The translations under genes and the position numbers were made by a program. DNA of 64,000 nucleotides, taken from NCBI RefSeq assembly GCF_009914755.1, contig NC_060932.1; one strand, given 5' to 3'. Below, one piece after another: positions 8,462-9,000 of this stretch; positions within the stretch are counted from its first letter, which is position 1; each line of letters opens with the position of its first letter. Source of the stretch: the human T2T-CHM13v2.0 reference genome, Homo sapiens. The notes under the pieces are model-generated. The model was not told where the DNA came from and did not search any database. It worked only from the letters and a program-made list of their open reading frames with translations.

Positions 8462-9000
8462 TTTTTAAAGCTTGCACATATGGTATTTTATTATAGAAGA
8501 AAATCTGATTTACAAATCTTTATACATTTCAAGGAAAACATTTAAACATCATAAAAGATGTTTGAGCAGACATAAAAATAGACAGAAATATCTCAGTAGG
8601 CAAATTCAAATTTATAACCAGAAAATAATTGTGGAGACTTATTTTTGGACTCTGTAGTTATTGCTGTATCATAGACAAGTAAACATTTCTGTACACTAGT
8701 TTCTTTATTGTGTGCAGAAATGTTTCCATAAGATTCATAGAGTACTCCTTGGAAGACTGACAGCTTGTTATTTGTTGGCTGTTTGGACCTTAGCAGTTCT
8801 TTACTGGGCTTCTGTAATTGTTCGTTGGACAAACTCTTGAGGCTCAGGATCCACAGTACCCCACATTTCTGGATTTCTTTTTCAATCATGGAATCATGGT
8901 GTTTTCAAAGGAAATGAATAACAAAAGATGAGGTCATGATAACCATCAAAATAATTCATTTCTTCTTTGTCATAAGGAGTTGGAAGAATTTCTTCATGAC
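8462..9000 (-). pseudogene. Processed pseudogene of C15orf48 (NMES1/COXFA4L3), CDS remnant plus 3'UTR
   Basis: Minus strand from ATG at 8997 reads MKKFFQLLMTKKK*..., D*KRNPEMWGTVDP..., KPSKEL..., KVQTANK* (stop 8770-8768), versus recalled MSFFQLLMKRKEL...[14 protein letters not shown]...[14 protein letters not shown]; intronless, with stops and frameshifts; 3'UTR-like sequence ends in AATAAA (8492-8487). Confidence 0.85.
8671..8740 (-). ncRNA. mir-147-family hairpin relic within the C15orf48 retrocopy 3'UTR (expression unknown)
   Basis: Minus strand TGGAAACATTTCTGCACA (8728-8711) equals the first 18 nt of recalled miR-147b-5p; 16-bp stem 8681-8696/8710-8725 with 13-nt loop. Confidence 0.6.

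What the first reader, a model, noticed from the sequence alone, without database searches (positions are those of the whole stretch)
8671..8740. miR-147-family hairpin survives in the retrocopy and folds on both strands
Seen: AAACATTTCTGTACAC (8681-8696), a 13-nt loop, then GTGTGCAGAAATGTTT (8710-8725). In the WWP1 sense pre-mRNA this is a fully paired 16-bp stem with one G-U. On the minus strand it has one C-A mismatch. The minus 5' arm matches nt 1-18 of recalled miR-147b-5p (UGGAAACAUUUCUGCACA), while the surrounding CDS is badly eroded. The sense 3' arm GUGUGCAGAAAUGUUUCC resembles recalled miR-147b-3p (GUGUGCGGAAAUGCUUCUG) with seed UGUGCAG instead of UGUGCGG. Inference: possibly a further mir-147 paralog cropped from WWP1 intron RNA, or an 18-nt complementary site for miR-147b-5p. 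Caveats: the basal stem pairs poorly, so Drosha processing may fail, and hairpin self-correction alone could explain the conservation.
Basis: partly seen in the sequence, partly recalled or inferred. Interest (0 to 1): 0.75.

Follow-up and report, generated by a model that had tools for sequence, protein, structure and literature searches.

The report
Decayed mir-147 hairpin in C15orf48 pseudogene
The hairpin is real, but it is the worn-down remnant of the miR-147b precursor carried along when an mRNA of the gene C15orf48 was copied back into a WWP1 intron long ago, and nothing in the sequence suggests it still works as a microRNA.

Summary
Window 8681-8696 and 8710-8725 form a 16-bp stem with a 13-nt loop: one G-U on the + strand, one C-A mismatch on the - strand. 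It is the only stem of that quality outside simple repeats in the 64-kb window.

It is inherited, not chance. Window about 8467-9022 (- strand) is an old processed pseudogene of C15orf48/NMES1, the host gene of miR-147b. Four exons that lie apart on chr15 lie next to each other here, and the reading frame is broken.

The hairpin is the relic of the 3'UTR mir-147b precursor:
- Rfam mir-147 scores 27 bits here, against a cut-off of 57 and 101 bits for the parent.
- It has lost 5 loop bases and the 3' strand of the basal stem, a net loss of about 47 bases.
- Two of the first eight bases of the 3' arm have changed.

Changes private to chr8 are as frequent in the hairpin (9 of 53) as in the flanks (27 of 191; p 0.66). 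Folding on both strands is what any near-perfect hairpin does.

Verdict: a neutral relic and an ordinary finding. Expression and cross-species conservation could not be tested.

The parts
8467..9022 (-). Processed pseudogene (retrocopy) of C15orf48/NMES1, antisense to WWP1. It lies in the intron between the WWP1 exons at 7225-7317 and 12316-12406.
   Evidence: window 9022-8950, 8933-8895 (weak, E 0.079), 8891-8834 and 8827-8467 align in order to four separated blocks at G000:C15:43238940-43239013, 43239216-43239254, 43240244-43240304 and 43241131-43241506. The last block contains the 101-bit mir-147 hit. PMC3441733 (passages) places miR-147b in exon 4 of NMES1, downstream of the coding sequence.
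8768..8997 (-). Remnant of the 83-codon C15orf48 reading frame, disabled. The start-codon equivalent is at 8997-8995 and the stop-codon equivalent at 8770-8768.
   Evidence: the pieces MKKFFQLLMTKKK*, KRNPEMWGTVDPEPQEF and ...RTAKVQTANK* lie in different frames with internal stops. The parental exons read MSFFQLLMKRKE / ...[26 protein letters not shown].. / [20 protein letters not shown] / [22 protein letters not shown]. The segment matching the membrane helix is shortened.
8672..8739 (-). Relic of the mir-147b precursor hairpin (extent of the Rfam RF00693 match).
   Evidence: 27 bits against a gathering score of 57, E 0.0067 in 2.5 kb and 0.00046 in 171 nt, model positions 1-78. Five basal pairs are broken, with a 5-nt deletion in the loop and another in the 3' basal strand. 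The + strand match (8681-8725) scores 21.7 bits.
8710..8725 (-). 5' arm in the retrocopy sense (3' arm when read in WWP1 sense). Unchanged from the parent at 15 of 16 positions.
   Evidence: AAACATTTCTGCACAC here against AAACATTTCTGCACAA in the parent (L004:1390-1405); the 18-mer at 8711-8728 is exact in chr15 and in chr20:43294144.
8681..8696 (-). 3' arm in the retrocopy sense, homologous to the arm that gives the main mature miR-147b. It carries three transitions relative to the parent.
   Evidence: GTGTACAGAAATGTTT here against GTGTGCGGAAATGCTT in the parent; the private changes map to L004 1428 G>A, 1430 G>A (the G of a CpG) and 1437 C>T. PMC3441733 (passages) states that miR-147a and miR-147b differ by one seed base. 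That fits the chr9 and chr15 difference in this arm.
8697..8709 (.). Terminal loop, 5 bases shorter than in the parent.
   Evidence: Alignments.
8667..8680 (-). Deletion scar. The sequence directly downstream of the 3' arm has a net loss of about 47 parental bases, including the 3' strand of the basal stem.
   Evidence: the parent has 60 bases between the arm and the conserved ..GCAGCAATAAC.. block, and the window has 13; model positions for the 3' basal strand are deleted and five basal pairs are marked non-canonical.
8487..8492 (-). Retained polyadenylation signal AATAAA of the retrocopy. Only a short A-rich remnant (AAAAAG) follows the cleavage region.
   Evidence: the 3' block aligns at about 83% over 89 nt and includes the signal. 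No target-site duplication was found.

Best explanation
An mRNA of C15orf48 (NMES1) carries the mir-147b precursor in its last exon, downstream of the coding sequence. One such mRNA was reverse-transcribed and inserted, antisense, into an early intron of WWP1. I infer from the divergence that this happened on the order of 100 million years ago.

The copy has since decayed neutrally. The reading frame is broken, and the hairpin has lost 5 loop bases and the 3' strand of its basal stem. The arm homologous to mature miR-147b has taken three transitions. The upper 16 bp still pair because only three substitutions hit it and all were transitions: two fell on positions that were already a mismatch or a wobble, and one turned a G-C pair into G-U on the + strand and C-A on the - strand.

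The element is a pseudo-miRNA, homologous to mir-147 but not a working precursor on either strand. Shown here: homology, retrocopy structure, the lesions, and equal substitution rates in hairpin and flanks. Inferred: the lack of processing and function, and the age.
For: 1. Retrocopy. Four separated chr15 exon blocks are contiguous and collinear on the window's minus strand. The frame is disabled and the AATAAA signal is retained.

2. Parent identity. The last chr15 block holds the genome's best mir-147 hit at 101 bits. PMC3441733 places miR-147b in NMES1 exon 4, and PMC7386301 calls C15orf48 the host gene of miR-147.

3. Decay of the hairpin. Rfam gives 27 bits on the minus strand and 21.7 on the plus strand, against a cut-off of 57. 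Of the seven RF00693 matches reported in the assembly, this locus ties for lowest. The others score 101 and 49.5 bits (chr15, two strands), 66.4 and 27 bits (chr9, two strands), 50.5 bits (chr2) and 30.8 bits (chr20). Loop and basal-strand deletions are seen.

4. Folds with flanks. The parent folds at -38.7 kcal/mol, z -5.7, with about 30 bp of stem. This locus gives -21.0 kcal/mol, z -1.6, on the minus strand and -27.9 kcal/mol, z -2.7, on the plus strand. The only long helix is the 14+3 bp upper stem, and the flanks pair elsewhere.

5. No constraint. Differences private to chr8 are 9 of 53 in the hairpin against 27 of 191 in the flanks (Fisher p 0.66). The chr2 copy (12 of 65 against 46 of 226) and the chr9 copy (11 of 63 against 41 of 212) behave alike.

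6. No compensatory changes. The 5' arm is unchanged and all three stem substitutions are single-sided transitions, one of them at a CpG.

7. Sister copies. The chr2 and chr20 copies have lost the fold altogether (z +0.65 and +1.14). That is the scatter expected under neutral decay.
Against: A simple neutral simulation placed three random hits on the inferred ancestral 16-bp stem. A fully paired stem resulted on the + strand in only 2.7-5% of trials, and on either strand in 5-8%. The survival is therefore mildly lucky, though the case was picked after the fact.

The 5' arm and its upstream flank match the parent at 34 of 37 positions by my count on the alignment. That is above the copy's average, although one search shows no overall deficit of changes.

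The relative-rate test uses only columns whose ancestral base is supported by the parent and at least two other copies. It leaves out gap columns and depends on one MAFFT alignment of sequences about 65-75% identical.

I had no small-RNA, CLIP or cross-species data, so expression and purifying selection in other mammals are untested.
Confidence: 0.9

Rival explanations
1. The + strand hairpin, transcribed as part of the WWP1 intron, is processed into a new mir-147-like miRNA. Its 3' arm would resemble miR-147b with one changed seed base.
For: The + strand stem is fully paired, with 16 bp and one G-U. The fold is better than shuffles (z -2.6 to -2.7). The + strand is certainly transcribed, since it lies within WWP1. 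Its 3' arm differs from the parental 3' arm at 2 of 16 positions. Full pairing on this strand arose in only 2.7-5% of neutral simulations.
Against: The helix is about 17 bp. The bases below it do not pair, and in the minimum-energy fold they form other small hairpins. From recalled literature not read here, Microprocessor needs a stem of about 35 bp with a defined basal junction. Rfam scores the + strand at 21.7 bits against a cut-off of 57. The parent's antisense strand scores 49.5 bits, so likeness on both strands comes simply from the near-palindrome. There is no rate deficit in the hairpin. None of the 9 papers listed by my miR-147 plus WWP1 search showed a link in its title or abstract start; I opened none of them.
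Confidence: 0.03
2. The minus-strand copy is transcribed independently, antisense to WWP1, and yields a divergent miR-147 paralog. This would resemble MIR147A on chr9, which also lies in a C15orf48 retrocopy.
For: The orientation matches the parental precursor. The 5' flank and 5' arm are well kept. A 7-bp lower helix can form after a 6-nt bulge. The chr9 retrocopy hairpin is an annotated miRNA gene and scores 66 bits.
Against: The 3' basal strand is deleted, and the fold is weak (z -1.3 to -1.6; 12-23 of 200 shuffles fold as well). There is a C-A mismatch in the stem, and two changes fall in the first eight bases of the arm homologous to the mature miRNA. No promoter or antisense gene is listed here in the supplied RefSeq table. 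Even the far better chr9 hairpin gave no detectable reads in the small-RNA data of PMC3441733.
Confidence: 0.02
3. The + strand 18-mer at 8711-8728 acts in the WWP1 pre-mRNA as a binding, slicing or decoy site for the 5' arm product of mir-147b. This would link inflammation-induced C15orf48 expression to WWP1.
For: There is exact 18-nt complementarity to the parental 5' arm, and the 18-mer is present at only three places in the genome.
Against: The site is deep in a roughly 5-kb intron (hub gene table) and sits entirely inside the 16-bp stem, so it is poorly accessible. It follows automatically from an antisense retrocopy insertion. By recall, the 5' arm product is the minor strand of this precursor. 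There is no excess conservation.
Confidence: 0.03
4. The hairpin is a chance inverted repeat unrelated to mir-147.
For: None beyond the short length of the stem.
Against: Exons, hairpin and polyadenylation signal are collinear with the C15orf48 locus. The Rfam hit spans the full model. It is the only such stem outside simple repeats in the 64-kb window.
Confidence: 0.01

Closest known systems
MIR147B, the mir-147 precursor in the last exon of C15orf48/NMES1 (chr15; Rfam RF00693)
   Same: It is the direct ancestor. The order of flank, 5' arm, loop and 3' arm is the same. The 5' arm matches at 15 of 16 positions and the 18-mer is shared.
   Different: This locus scores 27 bits against 101. It has a 5-nt loop deletion, has lost the 3' basal strand, and carries three transitions in the 3' arm. 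It keeps about 17-21 bp of stem instead of about 30, and the fold z is -1.6 against -5.7.
MIR147A (chr9). The name is recalled; the locus was found as the 66-bit RF00693 hit.
   Same: It is also a mir-147 hairpin carried inside a processed C15orf48 pseudogene, with parental exon 3 abutting the last exon. Its divergence from the parent is similar.
   Different: The chr9 hairpin passes the Rfam cut-off at 66 bits and keeps its basal stem and fold (z -3.1). It differs from miR-147b by one seed base (PMC3441733). The chr8 copy fails on all three counts.
Other C15orf48 retrocopies at chr2:41.58 Mb, chr20:43.29 Mb and chr20:57.39 Mb
   Same: They have the same origin and are similarly old and degraded.
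   Different: The chr2 copy scores higher in Rfam (50.5 bits) but no longer folds (z +0.65). The chr20:43.29 Mb copy scores 30.8 bits and does not fold (z +1.14). In the alignment, the chr20:57.39 Mb fragment has no recognisable mir-147 arms.
miRNA loci inside processed pseudogenes (Devor 2006, miR-220 and miR-492; seen only as a reference-list entry in PMC4390885)
   Same: A miRNA-type hairpin located in a processed pseudogene.
   Different: In those cases, by recall, the hairpin arose from pseudogene sequence. Here a ready-made precursor was copied passively with its host mRNA and then decayed.

Membership tests
Rfam mir-147 (RF00693) / functional mir-147 precursor | Covariance-model score at or above the gathering cut-off of 57 bits | tested here: not met
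   27 bits on the minus strand and 21.7 bits on the plus strand. For comparison, chr15 scores 101 bits and chr9 66 bits.
Rfam mir-147 (RF00693) / functional mir-147 precursor | Common descent from the mir-147 hairpin | tested here: met
   The hairpin lies at the homologous place in a collinear C15orf48 retrocopy, and the match spans model positions 1-78.
Rfam mir-147 (RF00693) / functional mir-147 precursor | One continuous long stem including the basal helix. The requirement of about 35 bp for Microprocessor is recalled from the literature. | tested here: not met
   The parent has about 30 bp of stem. Here the + strand has 14+3 bp. The - strand has 10+4 bp plus 7 bp beyond a 6-nt bulge. Five basal pairs are broken in the model alignment.
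Rfam mir-147 (RF00693) / functional mir-147 precursor | Retention of the 5' end (seed) of the arm that gives mature miR-147 | tested here: not met
   On the minus strand, two of the first eight bases of the 3' arm differ from the parent. On the plus strand, the analogous arm differs at one of the first eight.
Rfam mir-147 (RF00693) / functional mir-147 precursor | Small RNAs of 21-23 nt with fixed 5' ends, dependent on Drosha and Dicer | not testable with these tools
Processed pseudogene (L1-mediated retrocopy) | Parental exons contiguous, with introns absent | tested here: met
   Four chr15 blocks spread over about 2.6 kb are contiguous within 556 bp of the window.
Processed pseudogene (L1-mediated retrocopy) | Ends at the parental polyadenylation site with a poly(A) tail | tested here: inconclusive
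   The AATAAA signal and cleavage region are retained at 8467-8492, but only a short A-rich remnant follows.
Processed pseudogene (L1-mediated retrocopy) | Flanking target-site duplication | tested here: inconclusive
   Only a low-complexity 9-mer is shared between 8380-8475 and 9015-9110. Loss of the duplication is expected at this divergence.
Processed pseudogene (L1-mediated retrocopy) | Disabled reading frame | tested here: met
   Internal stops, a frame shift and a shortened membrane segment.

The most novel reading that the evidence does not exclude
The relic has been co-opted on the WWP1 sense strand. One possibility is that the perfectly paired 16-bp hairpin yields a non-canonical small RNA with a miR-147b-like seed changed at one base. 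Another is that its 18-nt perfect complement to the mir-147b 5' arm lets the inflammation-induced C15orf48/miR-147b transcript act on WWP1 pre-mRNA. The only sequence support is that full pairing on this strand arose in just 2.7-5% of neutral simulations.
Probability: 0.03. Interest if true: 0.5.

Novelty: new member of a known kind. Interest (0 to 1): 0.12.

Why it matters
It matters little biologically. This is one more dead copy of a miRNA precursor that travelled with its host mRNA.

It has some practical value. The 18-mer shared by chr8, chr15 and chr20 means that short or 3'-trimmed reads from the mir-147b 5' arm can map to several places, including the WWP1 intron. Hairpin-based miRNA predictors may also call this locus.

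The family picture is a tidy example of how a miRNA hosted in an exon spreads by retroposition. At least five C15orf48 retrocopies exist, four still carry recognisable mir-147 arms, and one of them is the annotated MIR147A.

Tried and rejected
Searches and checks that led nowhere:
2. I substituted a relative-rate test that uses the human paralogous retrocopies as outgroups.
3. The global pairwise MAFFT alignment of parent and chr8 is poor across the deleted middle part and understates flank identity. I relied on the six-sequence alignment and the BLAST blocks instead.
4. A search for a target-site duplication found nothing credible.
5. The repeat finder listing of inverted repeats showed only simple repeats at 250-488 among its 25 displayed pairs of 70. 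I replaced it with my own scan.

Literature:
- miR-147 + C15orf48 + pseudogene: 3 papers listed. I opened one (PMC7386301), which does not describe these retrocopies. The other two were seen only as listings.
- miR-147a + miR-147b + NMES1: 1 paper.
- miR-147 + WWP1: 9 papers, with no link evident from titles and abstract starts. I opened none.
- miR-147 + processed pseudogene: 4 papers. The one I opened (PMC4390885) was not relevant.
- A five-term retrocopy search was badly framed and listed no miR-147 paper.
- C15orf48P / NMES1P / 'C15orf48 pseudogene' / 'NMES1 pseudogene': 1 paper (PMC8654286), matched only through 'C15orf48^pos^'.
- These searches found no description of the chr8 relic or of MIR147A lying in a C15orf48 retrocopy. 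The library lacks most subscription journals, and I read no supplements.

Ideas rejected:
- 'Hairpin self-correction'. All changes are one-sided, and no mechanism is known to me for 16-bp arms.
- The other sub-threshold Rfam hits on the + strand (mir-3012 22.5 bits, MIR781 21.4, mir-302 17.6, mir-2574 15.9, mir-488 15.8; cut-offs 55-90) are generic hairpin noise.

Full report
**1. The observation**

The sequence reads AAACATTTCTGTACAC at 8681-8696, a 13-nt loop, then GTGTGCAGAAATGTTT at 8710-8725. Scored pair by pair, the + strand has 16 of 16 positions paired with one G-U. The - strand has 15 paired and one C-A mismatch.

For window 8650-8760, RNAfold gives -28.5 kcal/mol on the + strand (z -2.6; 5 of 200 shuffles fold as well). 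On the - strand it gives -21.0 kcal/mol (z -1.3; 23 of 200).

I scanned the + strand of the whole 64-kb window for stems of at least 16 contiguous pairs (at most one G-U, loop 3-30). The scan gave 11 hits, of which 3 passed a low-complexity filter. Two of those lie in the (TG)n(TA)n tract at 253-296, and the third is this hairpin.

**2. What the surroundings are**

A search of the window's own assembly with the reverse complement of 8250-9110 found matches on chr15, chr2 and chr20. A more sensitive BLAST against a 9.9-kb stretch of chr15 (L011) showed four window blocks aligning in order to four separate chr15 blocks:

| Window block (- strand) | chr15 block | Note |
|---|---|---|
| 9022-8950 | 43238940-43239013 | |
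| 8933-8895 | 43239216-43239254 | weak, E 0.079 |
| 8891-8834 | 43240244-43240304 | |
| 8827-8467 | 43241131-43241506 | holds the mir-147 hit |

- **Exons.** The chr15 blocks are exons. They translate to MSFFQLLMKRKE...[26 protein letters not shown].., [20 protein letters not shown] and [22 protein letters not shown]. The last block contains the genome's best Rfam mir-147 match, at 101 bits.
- **Parent gene.** PMC3441733 (passages read) states that miR-147b lies in exon 4 of NMES1, downstream of the coding sequence. PMC7386301 (passages) calls C15orf48, with its 83-residue ORF, the host gene of miR-147.
- **Conclusion.** The window's minus strand at about 8467-9022 is therefore a processed, intron-less copy of the C15orf48/NMES1 mRNA, lying antisense in a WWP1 intron.
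- **State of the copy.** Its frame is dead: recognisable pieces sit in different frames, with internal stops and a shortened membrane segment. The AATAAA signal survives at 8492-8487, the poly(A) tail is reduced to a few A's, and no target-site duplication is detectable.
- **Age.** Identity to the parent is about 75% in the coding blocks and about 65% including gaps in the last exon. At commonly quoted mammalian neutral rates (recalled), this puts the insertion on the order of 100 million years ago. That date is an inference, not a measurement.

**3. The hairpin within the retrocopy**

Rfam's mir-147 model matches 8672-8739 on the minus strand over its full length, at 27 bits against a gathering score of 57. 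The + strand scores 21.7 bits.

The model alignment and the MAFFT alignments show the following lesions:
- five bases missing from the loop;
- the 3' strand of the basal stem missing, as part of a net loss of about 47 parental bases right after the 3' arm, so five basal pairs are broken;
- three transitions in the 3' arm, at parental positions L004 1428 G>A, 1430 G>A (the G of a CpG) and 1437 C>T.

The 5' arm is unchanged at 15 of 16 positions. The 18-mer at 8711-8728 occurs exactly at only three genomic places: this one, the parent, and chr20:43294144.

With 20-nt flanks, the parent folds into one stem of about 30 bp (-38.7 kcal/mol, z -5.7, 0 of 200 shuffles as good). This locus gives -21.0 kcal/mol (z -1.6) on the minus strand and -27.9 kcal/mol (z -2.7) on the plus strand. 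Only the upper helix of 14+3 bp forms on the plus strand. On the minus strand there are 10+4 bp plus a 7-bp helix beyond a 6-nt bulge.

**4. Is the hairpin preserved above background?**

Identity to the parent is higher in the hairpin (54 of 68 aligned positions, plus 10 gap columns) than in the flanks. The same holds for the chr2, chr9 and chr20 copies.

That pattern is expected without any selection on the copies. In the hairpin only the copy's lineage accumulates changes, because the parental miRNA is constrained. In the rest of the UTR both lineages change.

To isolate the chr8 lineage, I took columns of the six-sequence alignment where the parental base is shared by at least two other copies, and counted chr8 differences:

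| Copy | Hairpin | Flank | Fisher p |
|---|---|---|---|
| chr8 (this locus) | 9 of 53 (17%) | 27 of 191 (14%) | 0.66 |
| chr2 | 12 of 65 | 46 of 226 | 0.86 |
| chr9 | 11 of 63 | 41 of 212 | 0.86 |
| chr20:43.29 Mb | 12 of 66 | 75 of 207 | 0.006 |

The chr20 flank is poorly aligned, which may explain its difference.

The test has caveats. It rests on one alignment of diverged sequences, uses only columns with inferable ancestry, and leaves out gap columns.

**5. Why the stem still pairs, and on both strands**

The parental 16-position stem already had one A-C mismatch and one U-G wobble.
- The C>T change repaired the mismatch.
- The CpG G>A change turned the wobble into U-A.
- The third G>A change turned a C-G pair into C-A on the minus strand, which is G-U on the plus strand.

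All are single-sided transitions and none is compensatory.

A neutral simulation with three random hits (7/9 transitions, CpG weight 1 or 10) gave a fully paired stem on the + strand in 2.7-5% of trials. On either strand the figure was 5-8%. That is mildly lucky, but it is a post hoc pick from a family in which two sister copies have lost the fold completely (z +0.65 and +1.14).

Folding, and mir-147 likeness, on both strands is a property of any near-palindromic hairpin. The parent's antisense strand scores 49.5 bits.

**6. Mechanism and rivals**

- **Best reading (0.9).** This is a neutrally decaying pseudo-miRNA with no processing on either strand.
- **+ strand miRNA from WWP1 intron RNA (0.03).** The helix is too short and there is no basal stem. 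The requirement of about 35 bp for Microprocessor is recalled from the literature, not read here.
- **Minus-strand paralog (0.02).** The 3' basal strand is deleted, the seed has changed, and no antisense gene is listed. Even the much better chr9 hairpin gave no detectable reads in PMC3441733.
- **18-nt complementary site in WWP1 pre-mRNA (0.03).** The site is real, but it is intronic, buried in the stem, and an automatic by-product of antisense insertion.
- **Chance hairpin.** Excluded.

**7. Comparison with what is known, and novelty**

The locus is homologous to mir-147 but fails the family cut-off, the stem architecture and seed retention, so I do not file it as a functional family member. 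It meets the exon-junction and disablement criteria for a processed pseudogene.

My literature searches found no description of this relic. The library lacks most subscription journals, and I read no supplements. The supplied RefSeq table lists nothing here. Pseudogene catalogues that I cannot query may list the retrocopy.

I rate it a new member of a known kind, and ordinary.

**8. What remains open**

Small-RNA expression, Microprocessor cleavage and cross-species conservation could not be examined with the tools at hand. The decisive tests are listed under next steps.

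Noticed in passing
L007:1261-1740 (G000:C9, about 132.4386-132.4390 Mb), hairpin at L007:1501-1580 minus strand: The 66-bit mir-147 hit on chr9 is annotated MIR147A by recall. It sits inside another processed C15orf48 pseudogene: parental exon 3 abuts the last exon (L007 1740-1689 next to 1690-1261), and the copy ends at the parental AATAAA followed by an A run. 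My literature searches did not find this stated.
   Followed up: partly
L008 (G000:C2:41581226-41581302, minus), L009 (G000:C20:43294134-43294209, plus), L003 (G000:C20:57391521-57391611): Three further C15orf48 retrocopies or fragments exist. The chr2 copy scores 50.5 bits for mir-147 but no longer folds (z +0.65). The chr20:43.29 Mb copy scores 30.8 bits, does not fold (z +1.14), and still holds the exact 18-mer of the 5' arm. In the alignment, the chr20:57.39 Mb fragment has no recognisable mir-147 arms.
   Followed up: partly
window 9141-9317, minus strand: An Alu element lies just beyond the 5' end of the retrocopy. It gives sub-threshold Rfam hits: Metazoa_SRP 58 bits, mir-1268 47.5 bits and mir-3135 39.5 bits. 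Its poly(A) reads as the T run at 9141-9170. These miRNA-family hits are Alu-derived look-alikes.
   Followed up: no
window 250-488: A long (TG)n(TA)n simple repeat accounts for all 25 displayed pairs of the 70 short-range inverted repeats found.
   Followed up: no
window 8593-8904, minus strand: A 103-codon stop-free frame runs across the pseudogene and the hairpin. It mixes out-of-frame pseudogene sequence with UTR, and I regard it as accidental.
   Followed up: no
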